A DNA stretch of 64,000 bases from the IMG/VR virus record IMGVR_UViG_3300037400_001962, positions 58,702 to 122,701 of that record. One strand, given 5' to 3'. Below are positions 1-64,000 of this stretch, piece after piece. The DNA comes from a virus. Taxonomy: Duplodnaviria; Caudoviricetes. The notes beneath the pieces are model-generated. The model was not told the DNA's origin. It searched no databases and was given only the letters and a program-made list of their open reading frames with translations. A program made the translations under genes and the position numbers. Within the stretch, counting starts at the first letter, position 1. Each line of letters starts with the position of its first letter.

Positions 1-2
1 TT

Positions 3-953
3 ATTGATCCAACATATGTCCGTAATCTAAAACTTTCTCCATCATATAATGAAACTACATTCGCGGCTGAGTATCTTGGTGTTTGGCTTGGTGGTAGTGA
101 TGAATCCTGGTTTGATTATTCTAAACTTACAAAATATCGAAAAATTAAAAATCCAGAATGGATTCAAAAATTTAGAGAAGAAAAAAATGTATTCTACTTA
201 ATATCAGTGGACGTAGGTAGATTACACGACTAGACTGTCGCATGTATATGGCGTGTGAATATTCGTGATAACAAATACTATGCAACTCTTGTAAATTTAT
301 TTGTCCTTGGCCGCCAAGCTCAAACAAAAACATTTATATAGCAGGCCGCAGATTTAAAAGGACTTATTGCGATTTATCGACCACGGGAAGTAGTTATAGA
401 TTGCAATGGCTTGGGTCTGGGTCTTGCTGATGAAATGATTAAAACTTAGTTAGATGAAAATGGTAACGAACTTCCTGCGTATGGATTTTTTAATAATGAT
501 GATTATAAAAAGATCTAGCCGAAAGACGCACCACAAATTCTCTATTCTTTGAAGGCCAATGGCCCTTTAAATTCAAAAATACATGGTAATGCCTACTCTC
601 GTATTAATAGTGGTATGGTTCGTTTTTTAATCAGCGAACAAGAAGCACGAACTGCATTACTTGCTACTAAAGTTGGTTAGAAAATGAAAACAGAAGAACG
701 TATAAAACGTCTTATGCCACATGAGCTTACTACAAAATTATTTGAAGAAATGTCTAATTTGCGGCTTAAGAAAAGTGGACTTGACATTGTACTTGAATAG
801 ATTAATCCTCGGTTCCCTAAAGATAAATATTCTGCTTTTGCCTATGGGTTATGGAGAATAAAAGAACTTGAAGAGGAAAACTATAAAAAAGTTGTTCGTC
901 GAGGAAATGGATAGAAGCGATAGTTAATTTTCTTTACTGGAGGACAAACTTAA
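3..953 (+). CDS. terL: Terminase large subunit, C-terminal nuclease part (5' end outside the window; TAG read as Gln)
   Basis: Frame from 3 is open to TAA 951-953 apart from TAGs (first at 231). Translation has RNase H-like terminase motifs (LISVDVGRLHDQT, VVIDCNGLG, KDKYSAFAYGL) and lies directly upstream of the portal. Confidence 0.85.
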
Positions 954-2446
954 TGGGAGAGACTAAACGAATTGATGATTTAAGCACTTTTAAGGCGATG
1001 ATCAAAGAAATGGTCGCAAAAAGTGAATAGTCTTGGAACGAGTCTTTAGGCTACTCTTTCCATTCTCAAAGGATAAGAGAATATACAAAGGAAGAAGTAG
1101 ATAATATCATTAATAGTAGTTCTTTACAGCAACAACAAGAGCTTTCTAGAAATTTCTTTTTTAAAGATGGTTTTTATAAACGTATTATTTTTTATTATGC
1201 TACGCTTTTGAAATACATAGGTATATTAATCCCTAATCCAAGTGCGGGTAATGAACTCTCCACCCCCTATGTACAAAAGCGATATAATAATGCCCTTGAT
1301 TATCTTGATAAGATAAATTTACCAGAATTATTAACAAGAATTTCAATGAAAGCACTTATAGATGGTTGCTATTATGGTGTGCTCCAGAATGTAAGTAGAA
1401 GCGATTTCGTAATTTTTGATTTACCAGCTAAATATTGTCGTTCTAATTTTCGTGACTTTCATGGTAATGATGTAATAGAATTTAATGTATTATATTTTAA
1501 TACAATTACAGATGAAAAAATAAGGCAACAAGCTTTGAAGATTTACCCAAAAGTTTTAGCAGACCATTATCGTAGATATAAAAAGTCTTAGGTAAAAACT
1601 CCTTGGGTAAAAGTACCAACTGATATTGGTTTTTGTTTCTCTTTCTCAGATGATAACAGACCATTATTTTTAGATGTAATTCCAGCTACAATGGATTATG
1701 ATGAAGCAGTAGATATTAATAGAGAGCGTGATTTAGAAGAAATTCGGAAGATTATTGTCCAAAAGATACCACATTTACAAGATGGTACGTTATTATTTGA
1801 GCCAAATGAAGCTCAAGTAATGCATGACGGCGCAGTCGGTATGATGCGTGGTAACAAAAATATAAGTGTCTTAACTACTTATGCTGATGTTGATTCTGTT
1901 GTATCAAATACTTCATCAGAAGCATCTACAAATGCGTTGGAAAAGAGTTTACAAAATATTTATTCTAATACTGGTGCTAGCGGGCAGCTTTTTGCGCCGA
2001 CCGGTAGTCAAGCTTTAATGATTTCTATTAAGAATGATATTGCGTTAATGATGGTATTAGGAAATAAATATTCTCGTTTCTTTACTTTTATTATTAATTC
2101 TCTTTTTGCAAATTCCAATGTAACATTTAAATACACATTATTACCGATTTCATATTATGATAGTAGTGATTATATTACTGATGCCTTTAAATTAGCACAA
2201 AGTGGTTATTCACTTTTATTACCATGTTTGGCTTTAGGCATTACACAAAAAGATTTGCTGAATTTGAAAGATTTAGAAAATAACGCTTTGAAATTAATTG
2301 ATAAACTAATACCGCCTGCTTCTGCATATACTGCGGGCACTGGAACTGGTAAAGTTGGTCGTCCAGAATTACCAGCAGATCAAAAGTCACAAAAGACCAT
2401 TTAGAACGAATAGGCTTTAGATAATAATGGAGGCTCAAATGAATAA
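953..2446 (+). CDS. Portal protein (TAG read as Gln)
   Basis: ATG overlaps the terL stop (TAATG) after GGAGG. Joins track ORFs 1208-1591 and 1691-2404 in one frame and ends at TAA 2444-2446. Size (~497 aa), position and C-terminal GRP motif fit a portal. Confidence 0.75.
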
Positions 2447-3800
2447 ACCATTATGCAAATTTACTGTACAAGTATATGGAGAATTAAATAAGTATAATGA
2501 AGTTTTGAGCAAGGCAAGATGCAGAATCTTTTATAAGTATGAAAATCGCAATGGTACTTATATTACTGATGAATTTGCAGAGAAGCTAATAAGTTCTCTT
2601 CCATATGTTCCAGTCAAAGGAATTTATTCCGATGAAGATTATACAGACCATGGTGTGCGGCGTGATCAGGGGCGTATTTATGGTATTGTCCCTGAAAACC
2701 CAAACGTAGCTTGGGAAGAATTTATTGATGACGATGGAATTACAAGAACTTATGCTTGTACAGATGTTTTGATTTTTACTGCTATATATGAAGAAGCAAA
2801 TGATATTATTGGTAAAAGTCAATCTATGGAATTATATCCACCTTCTTTAAAATATCATGAAGCTATTGTCCATAATAAGCGTTATATTGTTTTTGATGAT
2901 GGTTGTTTTTTAGGGCTTCAAGTATTAGGTGACAAAGTTGAACCTTGCTTTGAAGGAGCTTCATTTTATACTTTATAGAGTACAATAGAATATACTATTA
3001 ATTAGATAAAAAAATACGGAGGTACTAAAATGCCTAAAATTAATTTCAAACTCTCTGATGATGCTAAGTTTAGCGCATTATGGGCTTTACTAAATCCAGA
3101 GTTTAATGAAGAAGGCAACTGGACCATTAGTTATGGTATCTCAGCCGTTTATGATGATTATGCTTTAGCAGTTAATTATGAAACTGGTGAGATGAACCGT
3201 GTTTACTATTCTAAGAATGATGAAAATGATATGGTTGAACTCGGCGATATTGTTAAATGCTATATTGTTGATGTAACTGAGAATGAGAAATCTACTCTTG
3301 ATACACTTCGTTCTTTAAATGGTAATACTTATGAGTTAGTTAGTGATGTATTAACTAATGCTCAAGAGAATTTTGAAAAAGTTTCAGAATTTTCTACCAA
3401 AATTGAAGAGTTGAATGAAACCGTTTCTACTTTAACTACAGAGAGAGATAATGCTAATGCATCAATTGGTGAGTATACAACTCAACTTGAGACTGCAAAC
3501 GGCACAATCAATTCTTTAAATGAAGAATTAAATGCTTTAAAAGAGTTTAAGCTCAATATTGAGACTAAACAAAAAGAAGCTGTTATTGACGAGTATACTG
3601 AAAATCTGTCTGAGGAAATTATTGAGACTTATCGTGCCAAGATTTCTGAGTACAGCGTTGAAGAGCTTGACATGCGGCTGGCTTATGAGTTAAAGAAAAC
3701 TAATTCTTCTATTTTCACTAAGAATAGTGATGAGGGAATTGTCCCCAAAGATACTCAAACTGATGGAATAACCGCCATCTTATCAAAATATAAAAAGTAA
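2439..3800 (+). CDS. Prohead protease-like domain fused in frame (through two TAGs) to a coiled-coil scaffold domain; probable internal start at 3030
   Basis: Track ORFs 2427-2978 and 3030-3800 share a frame and are separated only by TAG codons. GGAGG precedes both ATG 2439 and ATG 3030. Lies between portal and capsid genes; the C-terminal half is an acidic coiled coil. Confidence 0.65.
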
Positions 3801-3816
3801 TTAGGAGGCTATTTAA

Positions 3817-4377
3817 ATGGCTAGAATGGTTATTGATGGTTTCGGCCAAGTTGAACTTAATAACGTAGCATTCCGTCGTGATGGCCGCATTGAGGCCCAG
3901 TGCGCTCTTGATACTGCTGCTTTTACTAGTAATGTTCCATGTGAAAATGGTATGATTCTTCGTGTTAAAAAAGCAGAGCATAAGATCACTTTCGCAGATG
4001 CTAGTGCCGCAAACCAACTTTATGCTTTAAATTATACTACTGAGCATATGTATGATGAGCGTAAACCCGGTCTGAAGAATTTCAGTCTGTCCGCTCAAAA
4101 GAATGAAAAGGGTCAGGATTTCTATCCTCGTGTAGGTTATCTTGCTGCTGGTGACCTTTGGACTACTAACTGCATTGATCTTGGTACTTATGCCAATACT
4201 TCTGCTGTTCAGTCTGCGCTTGCTTCCGGTACTGCTGTTTACGCTGCTGTTGGCACTCAGGGTGCTGTTGTCCTTGGCTCCGCCGCTCCTACTGTTGGTC
4301 CTGTGATTCAAGTTATTAAAAAGACTACTATGCCTGATGGACAAGAAGCTTTCCAACTTCAAGTTCTTTCAGTCTAA
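3817..4377 (+). CDS. Putative capsid decoration / head structural protein
   Basis: Intact TAG-free ORF with AGGAGG RBS and high-expression codon bias, immediately upstream of the major capsid gene. Confidence 0.55.
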   Translation: MARMVIDGFGQVELNNVAFRRDGRIEAQCALDTAAFTSNVPCENGMILRVKKAEHKITFADASAANQLYALNYTTEHMYDERKPGLKNFSLSAQKNEKGQDFYPRVGYLAAGDLWTTNCIDLGTYANTSAVQSALASGTAVYAAVGTQGAVVLGSAAPTVGPVIQVIKKTTMPDGQEAFQLQVLSV

Positions 4378-4396
4378 TTTAGGAGGGTAAATTATT

Positions 4397-5434
4397 ATGA
4401 CACTTAATGAATTAAAAGAACTTGCCCTTCATGCTGTTAGGGGTACTGCTCCTGATACCTTCACTGTTGAGAACGTTAATGACGCTTTCGCTGATGGCTT
4501 AAAGGAGTTTGCTGGTAGTTATAACCAGTTCATGAAGAATCGCTACGATCTGTATGATATTATTATTCAGTCTATTGACGAAATTCTTCCTCGTGATGTT
4601 ATGACCGCTATCGGTCAGTTTGCTGAAATCCAGTCCGTCGCCCAAGGACAAAAAGCTATGTTCCGTAAAAAGCTCGGCCGCGCCCGTGCTAAGAAATTCC
4701 TTACTCAGGTTGGTCTGAGTGGTGTTTATGAGACATTCCGTCTCGATAGCGAGACCTTCGAACTTGGTGCTCATGCCGTTGGTGGCGGTGCTACTATCGA
4801 CTTCGAGCGTATGCTTGATGGCGCTGAGTCTCTTGCAGAAGTTGTTGGTATTGTGACTGAGGGTCTGACCAATGCTGTGTATGTTGAGGTTCAGAAGGCT
4901 CTTGTTGCTGCTTATGCAGATATGCCTGCTACTAACCGTTATGCTGGCGCTTGGAACGCTGAGGAAATGGTTAAGCTGATGAATATTATCCGTGCTTACG
5001 GTCAGCCTGTTATCTTTGCTTGCCCTGAGTTCATCGCTGCTATGGGCCCTGATGCTATCGTTCCTGTGTCTACCGGTACTGGTCAAGGTGTTTACAGCCC
5101 CAAGGATATTGAAGCTATCCATGATACTGGTTTCATTAAAGTATTCCGTGGTGCTACTGTTGTTGAAATTCCTCAATCCTTTGTTGATGAGAATAACAAA
5201 GAGACTTACGTGAATCCTCGTTTCGCTTATGTTATGCCTGGTGGAGCTGAGAAGGTTGTTAAGGTTGTTCTTGAAGGCCAAACTCAGATTCGTGACCACG
5301 AGAATAAAGATAATTCTATGGAAGTTTACGCATGGAAAAAGATGGGATGCGCTATTCTGCATCACAACAACTGGGCTATCTATGAGAACACTTCTCTCAC
5401 CGATACCTCAGCTAAGGACATCTACGGTTTCTAA
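4397..5434 (+). CDS. Major capsid protein
   Basis: 345 aa, strong RBS, strong codon bias, TAG-free, followed by a terminator. Canonical position in the head module. Confidence 0.8.
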   Translation: MTLNELKELALHAVRGTAPDTFTVENVNDAFADGLKEFAGSYNQFMKNRYDLYDIIIQSIDEILPRDVMTAIGQFAEIQSVAQGQKAMFRKKLGRARAKKFLTQVGLSGVYETFRLDSETFELGAHAVGGGATIDFERMLDGAESLAEVVGIVTEGLTNAVYVEVQKALVAAYADMPATNRYAGAWNAEEMVKLMNIIRAYGQPVIFACPEFIAAMGPDAIVPVSTGTGQGVYSPKDIEAIHDTGFIKVFRGATVVEIPQSFVDENNKETYVNPRFAYVMPGGAEKVVKVVLEGQTQIRDHENKDNSMEVYAWKKMGCAILHHNNWAIYENTSLTDTSAKDIYGF

Positions 5435-5517: not shown

Positions 5518-5997
5518 ATGTCAGATAAAGTAAAAGTTATTAGTCAATATGATGGTCGTTGCGGTATTGACAATTCAGATCTTCGTATTTCCCGTCGGTG
5601 GCCCGCGCGCGGTTCACATGTGATGTTTGATAAAGAAGTTCTTGAAGAGCTTATGTATGACCAGGCCTTTAAAAACATGGTTGAAGAAGGTTATCTTTAT
5701 ATTGAAGATATGAATGTTAAAAAAGAGCTTGGTATTGAGAAAGAAGAAGCAACTACGCCAGCTATTATTTATTTAAGTGATAAAGAGTTAGAACGTTTTT
5801 GGAAAGTTATGCCATTAACGCAATTTAAAGTTGAAGTTAAAAAATTAACTAAAGTTCAACTTGATAGTCTTGCCGATTTTGCAATTAAACATGGCGATGA
5901 TGGTTCTATTCAAAAAGCGAATTATCTAACTGAGATTAGTGGTCGTAATATTCTTAAGGGGATTGAATTTTAGAAACAAATTGCTAAGGAGGGATAA
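5518..5997 (+). CDS. Hypothetical head/neck-region protein (TAG read as Gln)
   Basis: Track ORF extended through TAG 5971 to TAA 5995-5997, abutting the next start. Confidence 0.6.
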
Positions 5998-6000
5998 TAA

Positions 6001-6453
6001 ATGACCGACTTACAAGTAGTTTATGATGCTTTCTTAGCAAAACTTTTAGATGACGAATGGGGCGTATGGGAAGAAGAAGACATGCAAGAAGATTGGAAGT
6101 CTATCTTACACGGCGCGCTTCCATGGTTTAAATTTCCACGTGTTTCTCTTGAAATTGTTACCGATGAAGAAACTGGTGAAGAGAAGTTTGAAGAAGATTT
6201 AAATAACGAAGAAATTTAGATTTTAGCTACTTATATGAAATGTGAGTGGTTAAATCGTACTATACTAACATGGGAAAATGTGAAGCCACTTTATGATGAA
6301 AGAGATTTTTCACAGGCAAATTTAATTGATAAATTTAATTAGATGTTAGTATAGGAAAAGAAAAATGCGGCCAAGTTAGAGGCTGTATACTATAGATCTA
6401 TAAAGAGGAAGCCTTTTGATTATACTCAAATGGCAACTGCGATAGATGGCTGA
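6001..6453 (+). CDS. Putative head-tail adaptor (TAG read as Gln)
   Basis: Reads through 3 TAGs to TGA 6451-6453, overlapping the next start. Function inferred from position only. Confidence 0.5.
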
Positions 6454-6700
6454 AGTATTAGAAGGATATAATAATAATTTAAAAAATCGTTTATTTGGTT
6501 TACTTTGTGAATATGAAAAAGGCCGTGAATGGCAAAAGTTTTTAGATTCAATTTTAATTGAATTAATGTCATATCCAGAGGACTATAAAACGATAAATTA
6601 TTATAGATTATATACAAAAGTTTCTTCACTTCGTTATTTAAGTTATGAATACTTTAGAAGTACAGTTTTTGACTGTATGAGTTTATTATCAAAATTATGA
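6446..6700 (+). CDS. Hypothetical protein
   Basis: Intact 84 aa ORF, translationally coupled on both sides. Confidence 0.6.
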   Translation: MAEVLEGYNNNLKNRLFGLLCEYEKGREWQKFLDSILIELMSYPEDYKTINYYRLYTKVSSLRYLSYEYFRSTVFDCMSLLSKL

Positions 6701-7419
6701 GTTATTTTGATATTTATAAAATGCGGCTTAACCGTTTCGGTAATGATTATCAATCTCGTATTTAGGGAGAACGGGAACACTTATTTGATCTTTACTTATT
6801 AAAATCTATTTATAGAGTGGATTTTATGTATGAAGGCTAGCATTATGCTGGTAGTTTAGAAAGAAATAAACAAGATAATAGTGAAACAAGACAATATTTA
6901 TTAACTGATATAAATTTAAATATACCTAATGGGACTATTTTAATGATTCCTAATAAAGACAATATTAAAGTTCCATGGATGATTTATTATCTTGAGAATA
7001 TAAAAGCTAGTGGGTATAATAGATATATTGTACTAAAAATGACACATTTACTAAGATGGACTGCGCGCGATGGGTCAGAGCAAGAATCATATGCTTATAT
7101 GTATGGGCAAGAAGATAATATGCTTAAAAATGAAATTCGTTCGCGTTCGCGCATGGATACAATATATGAAGAGAATTTAAAACTTAGTTTTTTTGTTATA
7201 CCTACAAATAGTAATTTAAAAATCGATGATTATTTTATTATTGGCGAAAAGCCATTACAAGAATATTATCGTGTAACTGGTTTTGATATTTAGTCTACTC
7301 CTGGTGTTGAGTTTGTAAGCGTTGATCCTATTTATGAATTTGATTTAACACCGCCGCCAGAAAAACAATAGGAAGATGATTCAGAAGATTATTTCTGGTT
7401 TAATGGAGGTCAAGAGTAA
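6697..7419 (+). CDS. Putative head closure / neck protein (TAG read as Gln)
   Basis: ATGA overlap at 6697; in frame with track ORF 6943-7293; ends TAA 7417-7419. Confidence 0.55.
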
Positions 7420-7916
7420 TGGCTAACGGCACTAGAAATTTAAAAGATTTAGGACCTAATTTACAAAAGATAGTTTCTCGTTTATAGAGTAATCAAAATT
7501 TATTAAAACTTCTTTATTACACTGATAAAGATCCATTAAATAAAGAAGATTTAACTTCTGAGCAAATTAAAAATGATGTTTATGAGAAGTTAATAAAGGT
7601 TATCCCAAGAATTGGTAGCAAAGAAACTGCACAAAGTATGGTAACTATGCGTGTAGTGCGCGGTCGTAGTAATCCAGGTAATGAAGAATTTAGAGATTTT
7701 GAAATTGCTATTGAAGTTTTTGTACCATTGACGCAATGGTTTATAAAGGATTCAAATTTGCGGCCATTTGCTATTATGGGAGAAATTCATAAGTCTTTAA
7801 ATAATAAAACTATTAATGGTCTTGGTAAAATGTCTGGCGGAGATTTTTAGATTAACTTTTTAACTGATGAAATATGCAGTTATGAAATGGTATATTATAT
7901 AACTTCTTATGATTGA
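7419..7916 (+). CDS. Putative tail terminator / completion protein (TAG read as Gln)
   Basis: TAATG coupling with GGAGG RBS; contains track ORF 7638-7850; ends TGA 7914-7916. Confidence 0.5.
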
Positions 7917-8652
7917 TAGTTATTCTTTTTTAAGTATCCCTTTCCAATTTTAGAATGTTTGTAAAATCTATCCGCCGAAAATAAAAGAAATTTTATCTGA
8001 ATCTAATTATCCAGTTTATAAAAAACTTTTCTTTAGTAGTCAAGAAGATATTGAGGATGAATTCACTGAATAGAAATTACCTATGGATTCTGTTCCAACT
8101 CCTTTTGAATATTTATTTGAGTTAGCTAAAGATTATCGCATAAAAAAATACATTCTTGATGGATTAGAGTTTTTTATTAAAGAACCAGTAATTCTATTAT
8201 TAGATCAAAAATTAATTATTGTTGGTGATTTAAAAGAAACTCTTCCATAGTTAAAATCTATTGAAGATTTACGAATGATAAATAAAGATAATTATTTTGA
8301 TTTTCAAAATGCTCTGCGGCGCGCGGTTGGTGAAAAAGAAGCCGAACCATATAATCCAAATGAGAACCCAAAAGTAAAGTATTTTAAGGCAAAAGCTCGT
8401 TTACGTGATAGAGTAAAAGCAAAATCTAAAAATGCACTTACCTTAGGAGCTACTTTAGCATCAATTTGTTGTATGGGTATTGGAATAACTCCACTTAATG
8501 TCGGAGAGTTAAGCTAGGCCGCCATATCAGTTATTATGAGATACTATCAAGAGAAATAGAAATATGATATTGATATATAGTCTTTAATTGCTGGTGCGGA
8601 TAGCAAAAAAGTAAAACCGCAATTTTGGATTAGAAATATTGAAGATTTATAA
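7909..8652 (+). CDS. Hypothetical tail-module protein, possibly an assembly chaperone (TAG read as Gln)
   Basis: Open from ATG 7909 to TAA 8650-8652 when TAG is sense; contains track ORF 8275-8517. Confidence 0.55.
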
Positions 8653-8670: not shown

Positions 8671-9612
8671 ATGGCTAGTATTTTAGATCGTTACGGCATT
8701 AAAGAAGTTGCCGATGTAACATTCTATAAGATCAATTCTGATGGTACTCCTGGTGCTCCTGTACTATTTCTTGATACTTTGAAAGTATCTACAATCGAGC
8801 AAACTGCTGAACAAGTTGATGCTCGTGGTGGTAAAGGTAATCCCAAACTGATTACTTGGGACTATGGTAAGGAGATCACTCTTACTCTTGAAGATGCTCT
8901 ATTTAGCCCTAAGTCTATGGCCATTATGCTTGGTGATGGTACCGTTGCCCAAGGTACTGCTGGTTATATTCGTAAAACTGGTGTTGTTCGTTTAGGTAAT
9001 ACTGTTGGCACTGGTGCTAGTGCAAAAGTTAAATTCTTAAATGATTACATTACTGTTGACGTATATGATGCAAATGAAGGCAGTAAGCGTGTTAAATTAT
9101 ATCTTGGGAACGGCGATGCTCCAGCTGGAGAAGTGGCTTTTACTAATCAACTTGCTTTCTTAGTAAACGGTGAAACTGCAAAACTATATGATGAAGATGG
9201 TACGGTTCTTGAGAATGCTCTTACTATGGCAAAATTAAAGAGTTATTACACTACTGGTATTACTCCAAATGAAAACCAAATTCTTGATGGCCATAAAGTT
9301 ATGTTTACTTATTGGGTAAAGGCTACTACAAAGACTATTACTGTTTCTGGTGATACTTTCCCAGGTACATATTATATTCAAGGTGATACCTATTCTCGCT
9401 CCGATGTTGACGGACGTGATCAGTTCTTCCAGTTTATCGTTCCTAAAGCTAAGTTAACTGCTGAGCAAACAATTACTCTTGAGGCCGAGGGTGATCCTTC
9501 AACCTTTAATATGAATCTGACTGTTCTTCGTCCAGAATCTGGCGAAATGATGAAGTTAGTGCAGTATGACCTTGAAGTACCAGTAGGAACTGATGATGGT
9601 TCTGCGGGTTAA
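8671..9612 (+). CDS. Major tail (tube) protein
   Basis: 313 aa, TAG-free, strong RBS and codon bias, tube-like motifs (ARGGKGNPKLITWD; EGDPSTFNMNL), followed by a terminator and upstream of the tape measure gene. Confidence 0.75.
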   Translation: MASILDRYGIKEVADVTFYKINSDGTPGAPVLFLDTLKVSTIEQTAEQVDARGGKGNPKLITWDYGKEITLTLEDALFSPKSMAIMLGDGTVAQGTAGYIRKTGVVRLGNTVGTGASAKVKFLNDYITVDVYDANEGSKRVKLYLGNGDAPAGEVAFTNQLAFLVNGETAKLYDEDGTVLENALTMAKLKSYYTTGITPNENQILDGHKVMFTYWVKATTKTITVSGDTFPGTYYIQGDTYSRSDVDGRDQFFQFIVPKAKLTAEQTITLEAEGDPSTFNMNLTVLRPESGEMMKLVQYDLEVPVGTDDGSAG

Positions 9613-55001: not shown

Positions 55002-55028
55002 AATATCAACCTTTCATTTTATATAAAT

Positions 55029-55057: not shown

Positions 55058-55058
55058 A

Positions 55059-55223: not shown

Positions 55224-58113
55224 TATTCTCTTACCTCCGAAAAATCAATTTTATTAAAGATAAATTCTTTTCTAGGTTCAACGTCGCTCCCCATTAGTTC
55301 TTCCAACATATATAAACTATCTGGATCTGGTTCAAGAACATCCATACGTTGAAATTCAGGAGTAAACATAGACTTATGTGCTTGCTCTACGCTTAGAGCG
55401 CCCAGGCCTTTCGCGCGCTGAACTTCACCTTTAAGCTTACCGCGCACCTTATTAAATTCTTCATCTGTAAAGTAATAAGATTCATTTTTTCCATTCTTTA
55501 CGATATAAAGTGGAGAGCGGAGCCAACAAAGACGTTTTTCATTTAAAAACTCTGGTGCAAGGTATCGAAGTGCCGCCATTATAAGAAGTCCTATATGGTA
55601 ACCCAACCAATTCCAATGTTTCCATTGGGGCAGACTATATGTTACTCACCAATGTGAGAATACTCTTTCCACTTACGTACCAATAGTAAGTGTACTCTCC
55701 TTCCGGGAGATAGTCGTTACAGGCTTCATTTATTAACCCAAGTCTTTTGTTTCTTTTTGTATACTGGAAGGTCTTTATAGGTGCGGCCCCACAGTATTTG
55801 TTGTAGTGTTTGATAGCTACATCTATTTTGATAGTCTTTATAAATAGATCGTGCATCTTCATTTACATAGCGCTCGCGCATTTGAAGTACTTCATCAGAT
55901 GTGAATTTAGCCATTTCTGATTTACTTCCATCTGTTGCGTGTTGCATATAGTAGAGTTTATTTTCTTTGGTATAAACTTCCGGTTTAATATCTTTCCAAG
56001 TTGTGCCATCCCAAATTCTAGCAAATGAATCAAAAGCTATTTTATTTTTAAACTTCTCATATACTTCTTTACGTCTTAAATGTGCATCATAACATTCACG
56101 TATATAAGCCACATCATCATTTGTTAATTTGGTTCGACCGTTATGTTCTCCTCTACTATTTCCACCGCCAGGGTTGCAATTATAACCAAATCCTTTATAT
56201 GTGTTATAATATGCAATCCAATAAATTTCTCTTTCATCAAGCTATTCTAATGAACATTCCTCAATGATTTCAAATTTAAATGCGGTCGCGCCGTATTTTT
56301 GTATTGCTATTTCAATTGGAAGATCAATTTTATATTTATGTTCTTTAAAACGGCGTTCAATATCATTACTCTATCCGATATAGGACTTACCATTTTCAAT
56401 TTTTGTTATCTTATAAATGCCTATCATTGCGGCACCTCCACAATTATTAGGCTTGGGTTAATTCTGATTCCCACGGGATCTGCATGCCCACAAGGGGTTT
56501 AGCTTCTCTTACCACCATAACCTTTCGGTTTAGTTGCCCGTTAGCCTTCTAATTATAAGTAGAATATGTAAACCATCACTATATAATTTTGAAGACCCCG
56601 CTGGTTAGCGGTAAAGTATTTACAGACAGTTTTATTTATCTGAGTCGGCATCAGTACAGATTCCAATACGCCCATATCTAAGTTTTGAACTATTATACTT
56701 CCCCGGCACAATATTCATCGCGCTACAAAGTAATTTAATCTCTTCATTCTGAAAAATCTTTTCTTCCGGATGCGCAAGGCAATTCAAAATTTTTCCTCGA
56801 ATAGCCAAGATTCCGTAATTCTTATAATCACGCGCCTTCGCAATACCACCGGCCGCGGAGTCGCCTTCGACAATAAGTAGAGTTGCATTTTGTCCAAGAA
56901 ACTCTGCATCTTTGAGTTTATCAGATGAAAATACTTTTTTCTTTTGGTTCTTTTCGATGTCTTTTGTTGCTTCGAGGACTTGCTTGCGCGCGCGTTCAGC
57001 TGCAGCTTCTGCTTTAGCAATTTTTTTTAATAGCTCAACAATACTTTCAAATTCATCACTATATTTGCTTTTCATTTGCTTTAGTGCATTACTAAAACAA
57101 TTCGATGCAAGAGTACGGAGATTCGTATTATTGATTTTGGATTTGGTTTGATTTGCAAAAGAAGGCTGAGAAACTGAACAGTTAATCACATAGAACAATC
57201 CGCCGCGAATTGCATCACCATCAAAATTTTGTTTTGAAAGTGAATTAAATGTGCGCGTGATTGAAGTCTTTGCTCCGGTGATAGGGCTGCCGCCCTCGGG
57301 ACAAAGCAAACCATTTACAAAAACGTATGACTGCTCTTTTCCACTACCCCACTGAAAAGCAATTTCAAGTTTATCACCATTTGTATCGGTTACTGAATCA
57401 TAGATGATATGTTTATGAAGTGGCTTGGAATTATTATCTTTTACAAAATCAATAATACCATTCTTTGCACAATAAGTCTGTACTTCTTTTGTATTTTGAT
57501 TTGTAATAGTAAAAGTAATACCACTATAAAGATAACTAATATTTTTTATATCATCACAAATCTTTTGATATGAATATCCAATTTCTCCAGTTTTAAACAC
57601 TTCTGGATCTGGAATGAACCATACTTCTGTACCATTGGGTTCAAGTGTTTTATGAGTATCATTATAGTATTGGAGTTCACCTTTTGTAAATTCCGCGCGC
57701 GCTTCAATTCCATCGCGGAAGCTTCGAACTTGAAATTCGAGCGCGCTTAAACATACACACTTAGCTCCAATGCCATTGAGACCGCTGGCATTCTTGTATG
57801 CGCCTTCTTCAAATTTACCGCCAGTATGAGATTTAGAGTAGATAGAAACAAGGACATTTTCTCCGTCATCTCTTACTCCGAAAGGGACACCACGCCCGTA
57901 ATCTCGAACTGCAATAGCATTAAGTTCTTCATCTACTGAAATTTCAATTTTATCACCATATCCAGCAATAGCTTCGTCGGTAGAATTATTTATGATTTCT
58001 TTAAAAGCTTGATATGTACCTTCGAGGTCATCAGAACCGAGATACATCTGAATACGTGATCTTACTCCATCTTTAAAAGAAAGAGATTGAATATCATTTA
58101 TTCCATAACTCAT
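55223..58113 (-). CDS. gyrB: Type IIA topoisomerase subunit B; exons 58113-56638 and 55603-55223
   Basis: GHKL motifs (EIINNS, DYGRG, HTGGKF, GLNGIG), VEGDSA and IRGKILN. Splicing restores TDADSDGYHI. Confidence 0.9.
55604..56637 (-). mobile_element. Group I intron in gyrB
   Basis: P1 CAGAU|...GUCUG with U.G, AACGACTA / ATATAGTC P7 pair, terminal G, in-frame join. Confidence 0.85.
55726..56427 (-). CDS. Intron-encoded GIY-YIG endonuclease (two TAGs read as Gln)
   Basis: GGAGG, then MIGIYKITKIENGKSYIGQSNDIERRFKEH...EIYWI...GYNCNPGG; in frame with track ORF 55726-56112. Confidence 0.8.
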
Positions 58114-59886: not shown

Positions 59887-60465
59887 TTATGTGCCCTCCT
59901 CAATACAATAACATATGTTTGGATCTTTCTAAGAAATAGCATTATATTCTGCTCGTGTGCCAAACCAAAAATTTGCATTGCCGCCAGAGCCTGATGACCC
60001 GCCAGCCGCGATAATTTCTAAACCACGATCTACAAATTGTTTTAATGCTAAAAATTCATCTGAAGAAAAAGTGTCTGGATTGCTCATGCTATTTGGAGAG
60101 GCCTATACATTAATTATAAAAGAAGCTGTAGATATTACTTTACCAGTAGTATTTACTCCATCAAATTCAACTAAATCAGCGTATACTCGTCCAGCAACAG
60201 CAAGACACTACTTTGTTAATGTTATACTTACAGTTCCATTAGAATTAACTTCTCCTTGTATTTCTCCAGTATGTTTGTCTGGTTTACAATACCTTAACCA
60301 TACAACGTTTCCTCTTGGAATTGAATATTTTTCATTATTTTTAATAAGCTGTACTACTAAAACGCGAGAATCTACATCATTCTACTTAGCATTTATGACT
60401 GGGTAGGCTGAATTAGGATCTACGTCAAGTATTATTTCTTGTGTATATTCAAAATTCTAACTCAT
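59887..60465 (-). CDS. BppU-like (upper baseplate N-terminal domain) protein (TAG read as Gln; absent from the ORF track)
   Basis: AKQNDVDSR, KPD, LTKQCLAVAG and SSDEFLAL motifs; open from ATG 60465 to TAA 59887 apart from TAGs. Confidence 0.65.
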
Positions 60466-60544
60466 AATTACCATCCTCTAACTATTAGTGATGTGCTATT
60501 GTCCTATAATATAAAGTAAAATAAATTTAAAATAAATATAAAAA

Positions 60545-60577
60545 AATAAACCCTCAGATAATTCTGAGGGTTTTTAT
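60545..60577 (-). terminator. Intrinsic terminator
   Basis: AAACCCTCAGA-taat-TCTGAGGGTTT with A/T tails. Confidence 0.7.
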
Positions 60578-60855
60578 TAACCAAATAGTGCATTTACCAT
60601 CTTTGAAAGTGAATCCCACTCTTCTTTAGTGTCTTCTGCTTTAAAGGTTTTGTGATACGCACCGTGCTTCTTGCAAAAATCACTAAGTGCTTTTTCATAA
60701 GCTACTCGCGCACCCACACATGCTTTATATGCGGCATCAACTTTCTCTGCGTCAATTTTGCGTGCGTTAATTTTGTTAGTGACTTCAGTTTCTGCTTCCT
60801 TAAGCTCATTTACTGTATCATATACTTTGCCAGTTACTTCGCTAAAATACTTCAT
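60577..60855 (-). CDS. Hypothetical early protein
   Basis: 92 aa, AAGGAG RBS, own promoter and terminator, TAG-free. Confidence 0.65.
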   Translation of the reverse strand: MKYFSEVTGKVYDTVNELKEAETEVTNKINARKIDAEKVDAAYKACVGARVAYEKALSDFCKKHGAYHKTFKAEDTKEEWDSLSKMVNALFG

Positions 60856-60913
60856 AATAAATATCTCCTTTTATATTTATTTATAAACGTGTTCCTATCC
60901 ACGTTTATAAGTT

Positions 60914-60942
60914 ATTATAACATAAATTTTCTTAAAAATCAA
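60914..60942 (-). promoter_or_regulatory. Sigma-A-type promoter
   Basis: TTGATT-17 nt-TATAAT with TG. Confidence 0.65.
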
Positions 60943-61021
60943 ATTTTTATATAGTATTCAAATTTAAAGAGGAATGTTTTTATTTGCTTACTTAATTAAT
61001 AGAATACTGGAGGTGATCGTT

Positions 61022-61336
61022 TTGATAATTGGGACAACTCCAACTTTTACTCTTACAATTCCAAACAAAGGAAATTTAAATTTAAACGATGCAGAAAAAA
61101 TTTATTTTACAATACGGTAGGGGAGTCTAGTAATTACAAAAACTGGAGAAAATGTTAATATAATAGATGAACATACTGTTTAGGTTTCTTTTACATAGCA
61201 AGAAACTCTTCAATTTAGATATAATGCTCCTGCAAAGATTCAATTGAACTGGATTTATATTAATGGCGCGCGAGCAGCAAGTAAAATTAGAACTATTTAG
61301 CTTTCAGAAAATTTAATTCATGAGGTGCTTGAATAA
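61022..61336 (+). CDS. Putative virion structural protein (four TAGs read as Gln; absent from the ORF track)
   Basis: GGAGGTG plus TTG start; MIIGTTPTFTL...FTQQETL; TAATG coupling to the next gene. Confidence 0.6.
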
Positions 61337-61662
61337 TGGAAACTAAATATGGTATAATTTTAGATAATAATAGTAATATTGAATTAGAATTAGAAGATGA
61401 TTCATATAATTTAGATATAGAAGAATCAATAAATCCAGGAGAGCCTTCTGGCGGGCAAAATTATGAAGTTTTAAGAAATAAACCTTCAATTAATTCAGTA
61501 GAACTTGTAGGAAATTTAACAACAGAAGATTTAAAATTAGATTATAATTCAATACCAAATAAGCCCACAATAAATTCTAAACTAATTCAAGGTAATATTA
61601 CTTTAGAAGATTTAGGGTTAGGTGTTAGTGACATAGCCAGTATTAATAAATTATTTAATTAA
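61336..61662 (+). CDS. Putative fibre-associated protein with two NKP(S/T)IN repeats
   Basis: Y..L.NKPSINSVELVGN..EDL unit repeated twice. Confidence 0.55.
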   Translation: METKYGIILDNNSNIELELEDDSYNLDIEESINPGEPSGGQNYEVLRNKPSINSVELVGNLTTEDLKLDYNSIPNKPTINSKLIQGNITLEDLGLGVSDIASINKLFN

Positions 61663-61676
61663 TGGAGGAAATATAC

Positions 61677-62561
61677 ATGTCAATAGATTTATCAAAATTA
61701 ATAGATTATGATTTATTGGCCTATTTTAAATCAAAATTAGATACTTTGTTCGCGAATAAAGTAGATAAAGAAACTGGTAAGGGTTTGTCATCCAATGATT
61801 ATACTAGCGAAGAAAAAGCTAAGCTTGCCAATATTGCCGCAGGCGCACAGGTTAACGTGCTTGAGGGCATCCAAAAGAATGGGCAGACTATTACGCCTGT
61901 GAATAAGATTGCCAACATCCCTGTTCCGACAAAAACAAGTGACCTGACCAATGACAGCGGGTTTATTACCGCTGAAGATGTACCGGACGGTTCTGCCGCG
62001 TCTACTACCGTGCCTCTAATGGATGGTACTGCATCTACTGGTACTGAGACAACCTTCGCCCGTGGCGATCATAGACACCCAAGTGATACCAGTAAGGCTG
62101 ATTTGGCAAGTCCTGAATTTACTGGGACTCCGAAAGCGCCTACCGCTGCTGCAGGAACAAACACCACGCAGATTGCCACGACCGCTTTTGTCAACAGCGC
62201 GGTCAGTAGTAAGGCCAACAGTGCAGACGTGTATACCAAAACTGAGATTGATAACAAGCTCAGTTCAACATTCAAACCAGGTGGCTCTGTGGCATTTCAA
62301 AACCTCCCTGCGCTGTCTGCGGGGAACCTTGGCAAAATCCTCAACGTGACAGATTCTTTTACTACCACGGCAGATTTTGTTGAAGGCGCTGATAAGACTT
62401 ATCCCGCAGGGACAAATGTTGCCATTGTTGATGTTGGTACTTCCGGTTCTCCATCCTATAAATATGATGTTCAGGGCAGTTTCTTTGATTTGAGTGGTTA
62501 CGCCGAGGACAGTGATTTCGGGCTTGCCACTACGGGCGAAATTGATGAACTTTTTACTTAA
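61677..62561 (+). CDS. Putative head/tail fibre protein
   Basis: KVDKETGKGLSSNDYT, KTSDLTNDSGF, ARGDHRHP and FTGTPKAPT..TQIATTAFV fibre motifs; GGAGG before ATG 61677. Confidence 0.65.
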   Translation: MSIDLSKLIDYDLLAYFKSKLDTLFANKVDKETGKGLSSNDYTSEEKAKLANIAAGAQVNVLEGIQKNGQTITPVNKIANIPVPTKTSDLTNDSGFITAEDVPDGSAASTTVPLMDGTASTGTETTFARGDHRHPSDTSKADLASPEFTGTPKAPTAAAGTNTTQIATTAFVNSAVSSKANSADVYTKTEIDNKLSSTFKPGGSVAFQNLPALSAGNLGKILNVTDSFTTTADFVEGADKTYPAGTNVAIVDVGTSGSPSYKYDVQGSFFDLSGYAEDSDFGLATTGEIDELFT

Positions 62562-62581
62562 TCAAGAAGGAGGTGTGCCGA

Positions 62582-63730
62582 ATGGCACAGTATGAAAAAC
62601 TAATCAACCTCGGCCTACTCAGTCAGTTCCTGACAAAGGCCAAAACAATCTTCGCGCCCAAGATCACCGCCTCCGGCATCCTAAAGGGTGACGGGCAGGG
62701 CGGTGTGTCAGCAGCAGTAGCGGGAACGGACTACGCAACGCCAGGCCTCGGCCTCACCGGAGCCTCCGTAGGCGACCTTGTGAGGGTCAATGCTGTTGAT
62801 GCAAATGGTAAACCTACATCGTGGAATCGAGTAGCGCTGAATGAAATCAAGACTAATACGAATTTGCTCGACAACTGGTACTTTGTCGGCGGCGGGTCTC
62901 AGCTCGGTGATGGTGTGTTCCCTATAAATCAGAGGGGACAGACGGTATACAGCGGCATAGGGTATGGGATTGATAGATGGAAAAACACCACTATGCCTGT
63001 TGCAATTTCCAGTAATAATGTAGCACTTACAAATTCAAATAGTACAAATCAAGAGTTTTTTGAAATCATAAGTAGTAATTTTAATGTTTTCTCTGGAAGA
63101 ACTTTGACTATTAGCATTCTTACCAGTAGTGGTGTTTTGTATTCCAGTGCAGGTACTATTGCAGTAGCACAGCCATCTTCGACTACAGCGTATATAACGG
63201 CGAACATACCGAATGTTGGTACAGTTCAGTTATCGTGGTCAAAACCAAATCAATATTATTTTTATAATATTAGAATTCAGCCTGGTAAAGCTCTGGAAAT
63301 TGTTGCTGTCAAACTCGAACTAGGCTCCGAGCAAACTCTTGCACATAACGAAGGCACTGAGCAAAACCCCCTTTGGGTATTGAACGAAGTGCCCGATTAC
63401 AGTGAGGAATTGTTCAAATGCGTCACATCGACCGCTGATTCTGCTGACCCATATGCCAACAAAACGTATAATAAAGTTTTTTCAGCGAAAAACAGAATTG
63501 AAGCGTCTGAAGACTTTGATAATTATCGCGGTATAAATGCGATTGGATTCTATACTGTAAACGGCACGCCTACTAATGCCCCAGCAAGTTTTGGCACGTT
63601 ACTTGTATTTCAATCGGCGTCATCCACTGGATGTACACAGATGTATCTAGCGCAAGGCAAAATATTTTTACGACAATATGGTGGAAATCCGTCCTCTTGG
63701 GGTTCTTGGAAGAGTATTTCACTTTCATAA
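62582..63730 (+). CDS. Putative tail fibre / receptor-binding protein
   Basis: GILKGDG, NLLDNWYF..PINQRG..IDRW and VKLELG motifs, with a knob-like C-terminus ending WGSWK. Confidence 0.65.
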   Translation: MAQYEKLINLGLLSQFLTKAKTIFAPKITASGILKGDGQGGVSAAVAGTDYATPGLGLTGASVGDLVRVNAVDANGKPTSWNRVALNEIKTNTNLLDNWYFVGGGSQLGDGVFPINQRGQTVYSGIGYGIDRWKNTTMPVAISSNNVALTNSNSTNQEFFEIISSNFNVFSGRTLTISILTSSGVLYSSAGTIAVAQPSSTTAYITANIPNVGTVQLSWSKPNQYYFYNIRIQPGKALEIVAVKLELGSEQTLAHNEGTEQNPLWVLNEVPDYSEELFKCVTSTADSADPYANKTYNKVFSAKNRIEASEDFDNYRGINAIGFYTVNGTPTNAPASFGTLLVFQSASSTGCTQMYLAQGKIFLRQYGGNPSSWGSWKSISLS

Positions 63731-63751
63731 TAGTTAAAGGAGGAAAAACAA

Positions 63752-63970
63752 ATGTACATTATTCAGGAGATCCAAACAAACGGCAACAATACTGCCCTTC
63801 TCCCCGCAATCACCAAGACCGATAAGAACGAAATGGAGTCCACCGTGCACTCTATCCTCGCCTCTGCCGCCATCAGCACCGTGCAGGTGCACGCGGTCGT
63901 GGTGTATGACGAGCACGGAAATCAGGTGGTTCATAAGTACTATGAGCACATCCCGGAGGCTCAGGCGTGA
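63752..63970 (+). CDS. Small hypothetical protein downstream of the fibre gene
   Basis: AGGAGG RBS; 72 aa. Confidence 0.6.
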   Translation: MYIIQEIQTNGNNTALLPAITKTDKNEMESTVHSILASAAISTVQVHAVVVYDEHGNQVVHKYYEHIPEAQA

Positions 63971-64000
63971 TATGGACGAGCCGACAGTTGAGGTCATAGA

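What the first reader, a model, noticed from the sequence alone, without database searches (positions are those of the whole stretch)
1..64000. TAG is reassigned to a sense codon, and its use is split by gene function
Seen: terminase, portal, neck, TMP, Dit and tail tip genes become full length, with TAATG/ATGA coupling, once TAG is read through. Every gene I could delimit ends in TAA or TGA. dnaE, recJ, dnaB, dnaG, gyrA and gyrB (about 14 kb) have no in-frame TAG and so read correctly in either code. Established: code-15 gut phages exist, and recoding has been proposed to time late genes. Inference: this phage infects a standard-code host and switches code during infection.
Basis: partly seen in the sequence, partly recalled or inferred. 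Interest (0 to 1): 0.85.

Follow-up and report, generated by a model that had tools for sequence, protein, structure and literature searches.

The report
Phage that reads TAG as glutamine
This complete 122.6 kb gut or rumen phage reads the stop codon TAG as glutamine in about half of its genes but keeps it out of its DNA-replication genes and its most abundant virion proteins; this is a known kind of phage recoding, unusual here because the genome carries no tRNA able to read TAG.

Summary
The window is the right half of a circularly closed 122,574 bp phage genome. Reading TAG as sense raises ORF coverage of the window from 0.69 to 0.93. It also yields a 2,488-aa tape measure protein (79 TAG, no TAA or TGA) and a 1,720-aa tail-tip exon (33 TAG).

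In 80 related phage loci, our TAG positions align mostly with CAA/CAG (932) or TAG (385), so TAG = Gln (code 15).

Usage is partitioned, but not simply early versus late:
- TAG is 40% of Gln-type codons in terminase, portal, neck, tape measure, Dit, tail tip and the RuvC-like resolvase.
- It is 41% in homing endonucleases, including those sitting among replication genes.
- It is 1.6% in replication and nucleotide-metabolism genes.
- It is 0 of 59 in major capsid, scaffold-like, tail-tube-like, protease and fibre-like genes.

The same pattern holds across the clade, which contains both standard-code and TAG-sense members (at least two switches).

Sister genomes do carry Gln-type tRNA(CUA), twice next to a GIY-YIG homing endonuclease.

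This is a new member of a known kind. The code-switch idea is plausible but unproven here.

The parts
3..953 (+). 3' part of the large terminase gene. The whole gene is genome 57855-59654, 599 aa, 13 in-frame TAG, 8 of them in the window.
   Evidence: phrog_2, phrog_9 and phrog_38, terminase large subunit; TAG counts
953..2446 (+). Portal protein, 497 aa, 4 TAG (codons 26, 213, 484, 487). TAATG overlap with terminase.
   Evidence: phrog_2739 E = 3e-55, profile 41-499 of 501
2427..3800 (+). Head-associated protein (phrog_3313) with 2 TAG in the linker. Table 11 splits it into 2427-2978 and 3030-3800.
   Evidence: One PHROG profile (6-443 of 480) spans both halves
3817..5434 (+). Scaffold- or decoration-like gene (3817-4377) and major capsid protein (4397-5434). 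Both are TAG-free, and CAG is about half of CAA+CAG.
   Evidence: 0 TAG. Atlas features 0.99 to major capsid clusters, PF27364 YonB. Clade-wide TAG share 0.003-0.005.
5518..8652 (+). Six head-tail connector or neck genes: 5518-5997, 6001-6453, 6416-6700, 6697-7419, 7419-7916, 7909-8652. They carry 1, 3, 1, 4, 2 and 6 TAG.
   Evidence: ATGA/TAATG overlaps
8671..9612 (+). Major tail (tube)-like protein, 313 aa, TAG-free.
   Evidence: phrog_2729 virion structural protein; weak match to tail tube protein 8k98, E = 0.015; clade TAG share 0.012
9676..10461 (+). Paralogue of the tail-tube-like gene, 261 aa, 8 TAG.
   Evidence: phrog_2729 E = 2e-10
10517..17983 (+). Tape measure protein, 2,488 aa, 79 in-frame TAG (the first at codon 4), no TAA or TGA.
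   Evidence: 11 TMP PHROG families
18046..18843 (+). Distal tail protein Dit, 4 TAG.
   Evidence: phrog_33 and phrog_202
18855..24008 (+). Tail-tip / minor tail protein, exon 1, 33 TAG. The unspliced frame stops at TAA 24015-24017.
   Evidence: phrog_6211; P1 pairing puts the U.G splice-site pair at 24008/24023 (read)
24009..24312 (+). Group I intron, 304 nt (length = 1 mod 3, so the two exons join in frame).
   Evidence: Rfam RF00028, 90 bits against a gathering score of 50; boundaries inferred from the sequence, not tested with RNA
24313..26574 (+). Probable exon 2 of the tail-tip gene, about 753 aa, 2 TAG. Its first codon is TAG.
   Evidence: no PHROG or Pfam hit
27056..28622 (-). HNH homing endonuclease (27056-27985, 10 TAG) and RuvC-like resolvase (27897-28622, 7 TAG).
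   Evidence: phrog_374/559 and phrog_159/827; clade-wide RuvC TAG share 0.30
28624..36464 (-). Nucleotide-metabolism block: dUTPase (0 TAG), phrog_20031 (1, codon 20), nucleoside deoxyribosyltransferase (1), GIY-YIG endonuclease 31783-32502 (4), NrdG (0), HNH endonuclease 33695-34318 (1), NrdD (1, codon 17).
36446..51170 (-). A 14.7 kb replication block with no in-frame TAG in 14 ORFs: DnaE-type polymerase 37947-41918, methyltransferase, RecJ, GIY-YIG endonuclease 45344-46330, primase, DnaB, Sak4-like protein and unknowns.
   Evidence: clade-wide avoidance
51589..52344 (-). HNH homing endonuclease with 7 TAG, sitting between TAG-free replication genes.
   Evidence: phrog_374/559
52474..58113 (-). 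GyrA/topoisomerase II subunit (52474-54813, 0 TAG). GyrB is split into an N-terminal part (56632-58113) and a C-terminal part (55223-55606), both TAG-free, by a GIY-YIG endonuclease gene (55726-56427, 2 TAG).
   Evidence: phrog_543 positions 26-520 and 521-644 of 661; no group I signal in the gap
59887..61336 (.). Small TAG-using genes: minor-tail-like 59887-60474 (-, 5 TAG), 60652-60999 (+, 1), 60974-61336 (+, 4).
61662..63730 (+). Tail-fibre-like protein (61662-62561) and a 385-aa protein (62573-63730), both TAG-free and relatively GC-rich.
   Evidence: Tail fibre PHROGs

Best explanation
Shown. The phage translates UAG as glutamine (NCBI code 15) and terminates only at TAA or TGA.

Shown. 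TAG use is under selection that differs by gene.
- It drifts freely, to about 40% of Gln-type codons and largely at the expense of CAG, in low-copy assembly genes (terminase, portal, neck, tape measure, Dit, tail tip, resolvase) and in selfish homing endonucleases.
- It is purged from the core replisome and nucleotide-metabolism genes.
- It is purged from the highest-copy virion proteins.

Inferred mechanism. The host has the standard code with RF1. TAG-free genes can be made at any time. TAG-bearing genes, many with a TAG in the first 25 codons, yield product only once UAG is suppressed by a Gln-accepting tRNA(CUA). Suppression stays limiting, which is why bulk virion proteins avoid the codon.

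Inferred source of the suppressor. This assembled genome does not encode one. The most likely source is a tRNA(CUA) supplied in trans, or one carried by a mobile tRNA-plus-homing-endonuclease cassette that is present in sister genomes and may be polymorphic in this population.
For: Sense reading:
- ORF coverage rises from 0.685 to 0.927.
- The TMP frame is 2,488 codons with 79 TAG and no other stop.
- Profiles span the TAG positions.

Gln identity:
- Relatives' codons at our TAG positions are Q 932 (CAA 699), TAG 385, E 373, K 281. In the reverse direction, relatives' TAG aligns with our Q 395 times.
- The tRNA(CUA) genes of relatives look like tRNA-Gln.

Partition:
- TAG share is 0.405 (virion genes that use it), 0.411 (endonucleases), 0.016 (replication) and 0/59 (abundant virion proteins). 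Fisher p = 2.5e-41 and 7.8e-13.
- Off-frame TAG density is similar in all classes, 9-13 per kb.
- The pattern is conserved across the clade.

Limiting suppression:
- TAG-free virion genes have a distinct codon bias: GC3 0.33 against 0.20, and CAG/(CAG+CAA) 0.51 against 0.12.

Standard-code background:
- 33 related loci have no in-frame TAG and use TAG as a stop.
- The TAG-sense state needs at least 2-3 changes on the capsid tree.

Suppressor in sisters:
- G007, G008 and G009 (own subclade) and G002 and G003 carry tRNA(CUA).
- In G002 and G008 it lies directly upstream of a GIY-YIG endonuclease.

Literature:
- The same partition and the same hypothesis are in bioRxiv 10.1101/2021.08.26.457843. 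That study detected TAG suppressor tRNAs in only 40% of TAG-recoded genomes.
Against: - The complete genome has no tRNA(CUA). ARAGORN was run at default and at 80% threshold and with introns allowed. Rfam tRNA was run to E = 10. An anticodon-arm pattern scan and a split-tRNA scan were also run.
- It has no RF-1/PCRF domain and no GlnRS.
- The closest complete relative, G001, also lacks tRNA(CUA). A stable lineage therefore seems to manage without its own suppressor.
- Timing of expression is not observable from DNA.
- TAG-free capsid and tail-tube genes show that TAG is not needed to delay late genes in general.
- The host is unknown. Relatives binned with Faecalibacillus, Erysipelothrix and Bacteroidaceae MAGs give only weak hints.
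- The base after TAG differs only weakly from the base after CAA/CAG (p = 0.026), so there is no clear signature of competition with RF1.
Confidence: 0.6

Rival explanations
1. There is no timed switch. UAG is decoded as Gln throughout infection by a suppressor from the host or from a co-resident element. The partition only reflects translation efficiency: UAG is a slow or leaky codon, purged from genes where speed or yield matters (replisome, bulk virion proteins) and tolerated elsewhere.
For: - Abundant late proteins avoid TAG as strictly as the replisome does: 0/59, and clade share at or below 0.012.
- They also show stronger codon bias.
- No phage-encoded suppressor, RF or synthetase is present.
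- Some replication-module genes carry TAG in relatives: p377 share 0.22, methyltransferase 0.17, RecJ 0.045.
Against: - The near-absolute absence in DnaE, DnaB and GyrA across 55 loci (3 TAG in about 106,000 codons) is stricter than ordinary codon bias. These are not high-copy proteins.
- Relatives do encode their own tRNA(CUA), as expected if the host does not supply one.
Confidence: 0.25
2. The phage switches the code without any suppressor tRNA. A phage product neutralises host RF1, and UAG is then read by near-cognate host tRNA-Gln(CUG) through a first-position U.G pair.
For: - No CUA tRNA in two complete sister genomes.
- TAG replaces CAG rather than CAA in TAG-using genes: CAG share 0.05-0.12 against 0.26-0.51.
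- Avoidance in high-copy genes fits slow near-cognate decoding.
- From my own knowledge, not checked here: RF1-deleted E. coli reads UAG partly as Gln.
Against: - No candidate RF1 inhibitor was identified.
- 79 UAG codons in one gene would be very costly with near-cognate decoding.
- Other subclade members carry tRNA(CUA), so the ordinary route is available to the lineage.
- CAG loss is also what C-to-T drift in an AT-rich genome would give.
Confidence: 0.08
3. The host itself uses TAG = Gln, so the phage simply shares its host's code.
For: No phage suppressor tRNA is needed in that case.
Against: - About half of the ORFs of at least 100 aa (56 of 114) have no TAG, and the replisome avoids it completely. 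A host-matched code would not require that.
- Close relatives are standard-code and use TAG stops.
- Relatives encode their own tRNA(CUA).
- To my knowledge no bacterium with TAG = Gln is known.
Confidence: 0.04
4. TAG is a true stop and the structural genes are decayed or misassembled, or TAG encodes another residue such as Pyl, Ser, Leu or Tyr.
For: One relative (G003) has an 88-nt tRNA(CUA) with a long variable arm.
Against: - 175 TAG but no TAA or TGA inside about 8,800 codons of conserved virion genes.
- 385 TAG-TAG and 932 TAG-Gln alignments against Y 102, L 68, S 157 and W 13.
- The most frequent partner is CAA, which is two mutations away from TAG. The match is therefore at the amino-acid level.
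Confidence: 0.03

Closest known systems
Alternatively coded (code 15) gut and rumen phages of Borges et al. (bioRxiv 10.1101/2021.08.26.457843; Lak, crAss-like, Agate, Garnet, Amethyst, Topaz clades)
   Same: - TAG is read as Gln.
- Structural and lysis-associated genes are recoded while the replication machinery stays standard-compatible.
- Standard-code and recoded genomes are close relatives.
- The habitat is animal gut or rumen.
- Only 40% of their TAG-recoded genomes had a detectable suppressor tRNA.
   Different: - Membership in a named clade (for example Agate, 154 +/- 27 kb) was not tested, because no reference terminases were at hand.
- Here, and across the clade, the highest-copy virion genes are TAG-free and homing endonucleases are TAG-rich. 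I did not find this in the passages I read.
- A complete genome lacks the suppressor while sisters carry it.
phAss-1 / proposed Phassvirus (PMC10607447; GenBank OQ749652)
   Same: - A siphovirus-like gut phage of 130-140 kb with TAG in terminase, portal, TMP and fibre genes.
- 28% of its ORFs are recoded, and it has no aminoacyl-tRNA synthetase.
- The predicted host is in Bacillota.
- It is among the two closest phage-record matches to our portal.
   Different: - Portal identity is only 30.5% over 85% of the length, so this is not the same genus.
- phAss-1 has three tRNA(CUA) genes and 36 tRNAs. This genome has 13 tRNAs and no CUA.
crAss-like phages with experimentally validated code 15 (PMC9523058)
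   Same: TAG is read as Gln in late genes. [quoted passage not shown]
   Different: An unrelated podovirus-like lineage infecting Bacteroidota. There is no proteomic evidence for this genome.
Theta (HDV-like) ribozymes next to phage tRNAs (PMC10879173)
   Same: An HDV/CPEB3-like ribozyme lies in the tRNA region (L002:2991-3078, 40.3 bits against a gathering score of 35). In that paper, 20% of tRNA-associated theta ribozymes sit next to suppressor tRNAs.
   Different: Here the ribozyme follows a tRNA-like element (T-arm, closed acceptor hairpin, D-arm) rather than a complete tRNA, and no suppressor tRNA is present.

Membership tests
Code 15 (TAG = Gln) recoded phage | Conserved genes are broken by in-frame TAG only, and become full length when TAG is read as sense | tested here: met
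   TMP has 79 TAG and tail tip 33, with no TAA or TGA. PHROG profiles span the TAGs.
Code 15 (TAG = Gln) recoded phage | Coding density rises by more than 5% (contigs of at least 100 kb) under code 15 compared with code 11 (criterion of 10.1101/2021.08.26.457843) | tested here: met
   ORF-coverage proxy, not Prodigal: genome 0.678 to 0.884, window 0.685 to 0.927.
Code 15 (TAG = Gln) recoded phage | TAG positions correspond to Gln in homologues | tested here: met
   Q 932, TAG 385, E 373, K 281 at our TAG positions; the reverse comparison gives Q 395.
Code 15 (TAG = Gln) recoded phage | Phage-encoded suppressor tRNA with anticodon CUA (common but not universal: 40% in the survey) | tested here: not met
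   None found by ARAGORN, Rfam, anticodon-arm or split-tRNA scans. It is present in relatives G002, G003, G007, G008 and G009.
Code 15 (TAG = Gln) recoded phage | Accessory code-change proteins (RF2, GlnRS); occasional, not defining | tested here: not met
   PF00472, PF03462 and PF00749 gave no match in six frames of the genome.
Code 15 (TAG = Gln) recoded phage | Peptides that span TAG with Gln | not testable with these tools
   No proteomic data.
Stop-codon recoding as a late-gene or lysis gate | Late and lysis genes are recoded while early and replication genes are standard-compatible | tested here: inconclusive
   The replisome is TAG-free and the assembly genes are TAG-rich. However, capsid, scaffold-like, tail-tube-like, protease and fibre-like genes are TAG-free, the endolysin has a single TAG at codon 247 of 269, and endonucleases within the early block are TAG-rich.
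Phassvirus (phAss-1 group) | Genus-level nucleotide or protein similarity to phAss-1 | tested here: not met
   Portal identity is 30.5%. This is only a distant relative.
SPbeta-like capsid lineage (YonB major capsid family, PF27364) | The major capsid protein belongs to the YonB family | tested here: inconclusive
   Atlas feature score 0.99 to clusters where 91-100% of members carry PF27364. The held Pfam copy gave no hit. No structure could be predicted.

The most novel reading that the evidence does not exclude
A stable lineage of TAG = Gln phages (this genome and its closest complete relative) carries about 280 in-frame TAG codons but no suppressor tRNA of its own. The code change would then be supplied from outside the genome. 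One route is a mobile tRNA(CUA)-plus-GIY-YIG cassette shared in the phage population or resident in the host. Another is neutralisation of RF1 with near-cognate reading by tRNA-Gln. On this reading the ability to read the phage's own late genes is a tradable accessory trait.
Probability: 0.2. Interest if true: 0.7.

Novelty: new member of a known kind. Interest (0 to 1): 0.4.

Why it matters
Standard gene callers would shred the virion module of this phage, so the code assignment matters for annotation.

The clade is a compact natural series. It holds standard-code and TAG-sense genomes of the same architecture, with at least two transitions, and with or without their own tRNA(CUA). That makes it a good system for asking how a stop codon is captured and what keeps it out of particular genes.

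Bulk virion proteins avoid TAG, and selfish endonucleases are rich in it. This argues that suppression is limiting and that the early-versus-late picture is incomplete.

Tried and rejected
1. Hidden suppressor tRNA.
- ARAGORN at 80% threshold and with introns found no CUA tRNA. A weak 'tRNA-Stop(tta)' call at genome 20868-20939 has mismatched stems.
- A perfect CUA anticodon-like hairpin at genome 34115 turned out to be part of a 17-nt leader (TTATGTNTCTNGTATAT) that precedes tRNA-Val, tRNA-Pro and tRNA-Gln.
- Two 'permuted tRNA' arrangements (L002:2885-2990 and 16005-16130) would give anticodon AGU, or none. They fit Y-RNA-like tRNA mimics better: weak YrlA hits of 22 and 29 bits, and fold z-scores of -0.07 and -3.6.
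- A tRNA 3'-half-like element after tRNA-Leu(UAG), containing CUCUAGC, has no 5' partner and is absent from G001.
- The split-tRNA scan recovered only tRNA-Leu(UAA), which carries a group I intron.
- BLAST of relatives' suppressor tRNAs against the genome matched only T-arms.

2. A scan of IMG/VR for the suppressor anticodon arm found at least 109 contigs, none nearly identical to this genome.

3. The base after TAG, as a signature of competition with RF1, gave only a weak difference (p = 0.026).

4. A group I intron in the gyrB gap: no signal.

5. An intron-less homologue of the tail-tip junction in five complete relatives: the region is too divergent.

6. Structure prediction of the capsid protein was not available. 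A PDB profile search gave nothing meaningful.

8. The Nature Microbiology version of the Borges paper was not held. The preprint was used instead.

Full report
**What the sequence is.** The window is bases 58702-122701 of a single 122,701-bp contig whose first and last 127 bases are identical. It is therefore a closed circle of about 122,574 bp, 35% G+C, and is classed as a complete virus record.
- The plus-strand half of the window is a virion module: terminase, portal, head, neck, tail tube, tape measure, Dit and tail tip.
- The minus-strand half carries nucleotide metabolism and a replisome: NrdDG, dUTPase, DnaE-type polymerase, RecJ, primase, DnaB, a Sak4-like protein and gyrase-like topoisomerase II.
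- The major capsid protein resembles the YonB family of SPbeta-like phages.
- The nearest cultured or deposited relatives by portal are phAss-1 and phages of Enterococcus, Bacillus and Brevibacillus, at 23-31% identity.

**Is TAG a sense codon?** Yes.
- Greedy coverage of the window by ORFs of at least 60 aa is 0.685 under table 11 and 0.927 when TAG is sense. The TGA-sense and TAA-sense controls give 0.712 and 0.822.
- The decisive observation is qualitative. The tape measure frame 10517-17983 runs 2,488 codons with 79 TAG and not one TAA or TGA. The tail-tip frame 18855-24017 has 33 TAG in 1,720 codons.
- PHROG profiles for portal, phrog_3313 and the TMP families align across the TAG positions over nearly their full length.
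- All 114 ORFs of at least 100 aa end in TAA (93) or TGA (21).

**Which amino acid?** I aligned 17 proteins of the virion region against 80 related IMG/VR loci and read the codon opposite each of our in-frame TAGs.
- Gln 932 (CAA 699, CAG 233), TAG 385, Glu 373, Lys 281, Ser 157, Tyr 102, Leu 68, Trp 13.
- CAA is two substitutions from TAG, so the match is at the amino-acid level.
- In reverse, relatives' TAGs face our Gln 395 times.
- The tRNA(CUA) genes found in relatives share the D-arm and acceptor features of tRNA-Gln.
- TAG = Gln, NCBI code 15.

**How is TAG distributed?** Figures below are the TAG share of Gln-type codons (TAG+CAA+CAG) in curated genes of the whole genome.

| Gene class | TAG share | Counts |
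|---|---|---|
| Terminase, portal, neck, TMP, Dit, tail tip, resolvase, endolysin and similar | 0.405 | 175 TAG |
| Nine homing endonucleases (eight carry TAG) | 0.411 | 51 TAG |
| 28 replication, nucleotide- and RNA-metabolism genes | 0.016 | 5 of 305 |
| Capsid, scaffold-like, tail-tube-like, head protease and two fibre-like genes | 0 | 0 of 59 |

- Fisher tests give 2.5e-41 (virion genes that use TAG against replication) and 7.8e-13 (against the TAG-free virion genes).
- The last class was defined after seeing the data. Even so, the capsid gene alone has 13 Gln codons and no TAG.
- Off-frame TAG is equally common in all classes (9-13 per kb), so the avoidance is specific to the reading frame.
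- TAG-using genes have lost CAG: CAG/(CAG+CAA) is 0.05-0.12, against 0.26 in replication genes and 0.51 in the TAG-free virion genes.
- The TAG-free virion genes have a higher GC3 (0.33 against 0.20), as expected for highly expressed genes.

**Is the pattern conserved?** Yes.
- Among relatives that use TAG, terminase, portal and neck genes have TAG shares of 0.13-0.19. Capsid, scaffold-like, tail-tube-like and p159 genes have 0.003-0.012.
- In 55 loci around the polymerase gene, DnaE has 1 TAG in 67,672 codons, DnaB 2, GyrA 0 and primase 4.
- In the same loci RuvC has a share of 0.30, p377 0.22, the methyltransferase 0.17 and endonucleases about 0.15.
It is better described as three groups: core replisome and bulk virion proteins (TAG-free), low-copy assembly and accessory genes, and selfish endonucleases (both TAG-rich).

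**The clade.**
- Of 67 loci with enough aligned codons, all 21 with at least 68% capsid identity to ours are TAG-sense.
- At 64-67% identity both states occur; below 64% nearly all are TAG-free.
- The TAG-free relatives use TAG as an ordinary stop in 29 of 408 ORFs.
- A capsid tree needs three changes of state, at least two of them forced by well-supported branches.
- This repeats, in another family, the rapid code turnover reported for Agate phages.

**What decodes TAG here?** This is the open point.
- The genome has 13 tRNA genes, all between 20 and 34 kb: Asp, Glu, Val, Ile-UAU, Asn, Leu-UAG, Leu-UAA (split by a group I intron), Ser x2, Thr, Lys, Pro and Gln-UUG. None has anticodon CUA.
- There is no release-factor domain and no GlnRS.
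- The closest complete relative, G001, also lacks tRNA(CUA).
- Three other members of the same subclade (G007, G008, G009) and two of the second TAG-sense group (G002, G003) do have one.
- In G002 and G008 the suppressor gene lies directly upstream of a GIY-YIG homing endonuclease gene. In G008 the cassette sits at a site syntenic with genome 39,965-41,755, where our genome has no tRNA.
- The published survey detected TAG suppressors in only 40% of TAG-recoded genomes, so the absence is not unprecedented. Here it is shown in a closed genome whose sisters carry the gene.
- Possible readings: the cassette is polymorphic and the assembler took the path without it; the suppressor comes from the host or a co-resident element; or RF1 is neutralised and near-cognate tRNA-Gln reads UAG. 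I cannot separate these.

**Verdict on the interpretation.** Reassignment to Gln and non-random use by gene class are established. A standard-code host with a switch during infection remains the best-supported model.
- For it: a strictly TAG-free replisome, TAGs within the first 25 codons of many assembly genes, standard-code sisters, and phage-borne suppressors in relatives.
- Against it, or untested: it rests on inference; this genome shows no switch device; and the TAG-free bulk virion genes show that limiting suppression, not only timing, shapes the pattern.

**Earlier notes of this scan.** Notes on this same window had already recorded three related points: that high-copy virion genes avoid TAG, that paralogues point to Gln, and that the tail-tip gene holds a group I intron. 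My tests were made independently, and the first two agree. For the intron I checked only the Rfam match, the P1 pairing and the frame arithmetic.

**Novelty.** This is a new member of a known kind: code-15 gut and rumen phages (Borges et al. preprint; phAss-1, PMC10607447; crAss-like phages, PMC9523058).

Noticed in passing
window 23949-24315 (intron most likely 24009-24312): A group I intron (Rfam 90 bits) interrupts the tail-tip gene. P1 puts the U.G splice-site pair at 24008/24023. A 304-nt intron ending at G24312 joins GTT|TAG in frame, so the distal roughly 753 aa (24313-26574) would start with a TAG codon.
   Followed up: partly
window 55223-58113 (-): The GyrB-like gene is split exactly at PHROG profile position 520/521 into 56632-58113 and 55223-55606. 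A GIY-YIG endonuclease gene with 2 TAG lies between the pieces. The gap gives no group I intron signal at E <= 1.
   Followed up: partly
L002:12494-13293 (genome 30494-31293, +): tRNA-Leu(UAA) is split in its anticodon loop (CU U|AA AA) by a group I intron of about 720 nt (two weak RF00028 hits, 29 and 24 bits). The intron carries an HNH endonuclease ORF with one in-frame TAG. In relative G001 the gene has no intron.
   Followed up: partly
L002:2885-3078 and L002:16005-16130 (genome 20885-21078 and 34005-34130): Two tRNA-like elements have the order T-arm, closed acceptor hairpin, D-arm (weak YrlA hits). The first is followed directly by an HDV/CPEB3-like ribozyme (40.3 bits against a gathering score of 35) that would cut at its 3' end. 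The second folds with z = -3.6 and sits just upstream of tRNA-Gln. Genes for an RNA ligase, a polynucleotide-kinase-like protein, three phosphoesterases and a DUF2828/DUF7788 'RNA-binding' protein lie nearby.
   Followed up: partly
genome 22129, 33799, 34114 (+): A 17-nt motif, TTATGTNTCTNGTATAT, abuts the 5' end of tRNA-Val, tRNA-Pro and tRNA-Gln. It may be a shared leader or promoter element.
   Followed up: no
L118:2172-3239 (G002) and L183:3398-4142 (G008): In two relatives from different TAG-sense groups, the Gln-type tRNA(CUA) gene lies immediately upstream of a GIY-YIG homing endonuclease gene. This suggests that the suppressor travels as a mobile cassette. The same anticodon arm (GGAGG-CUCUAAC-CCUCY) occurs in at least 109 IMG/VR contigs.
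   Followed up: partly
L116:3854-4001 (G001): tRNA-Ile(UAU) of the closest relative carries a 71-nt insertion in the anticodon loop, and the insertion itself scores as a tRNA (31 bits). Our copy is uninterrupted.
   Followed up: no
L180:4659-5271, L118:14151-14758, L117:4593-5187(-), L115:6612-6723: Relatives carry ROOL RNA (258-334 bits) and drum RNA (73 bits) next to their tRNA arrays. Neither was found in this genome at the gathering score.
   Followed up: no
whole genome, TAG-using genes: TAG-using genes have about 50 Gln-type codons per 1000, against 33 in TAG-free genes. Without TAG they have about 30. TAG therefore adds Gln at tolerant sites (often E or K in relatives) rather than only replacing CAA/CAG.
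   Followed up: partly
L026:10001-11044: One TAG-sense relative (77% capsid identity, TAG share 0.52) has 4 TAG in its major capsid gene. It is the only exception to capsid TAG avoidance among 80 loci.
   Followed up: no
L004:5295-6638 (genome 55295-56638, +): A 447-aa ORF just upstream of the packaging genes matches a 'sigma factor' PHROG (E = 7e-16, residues 268-427) and carries 9 TAG. If it is a late transcription factor, its own synthesis would depend on TAG read-through.
   Followed up: no
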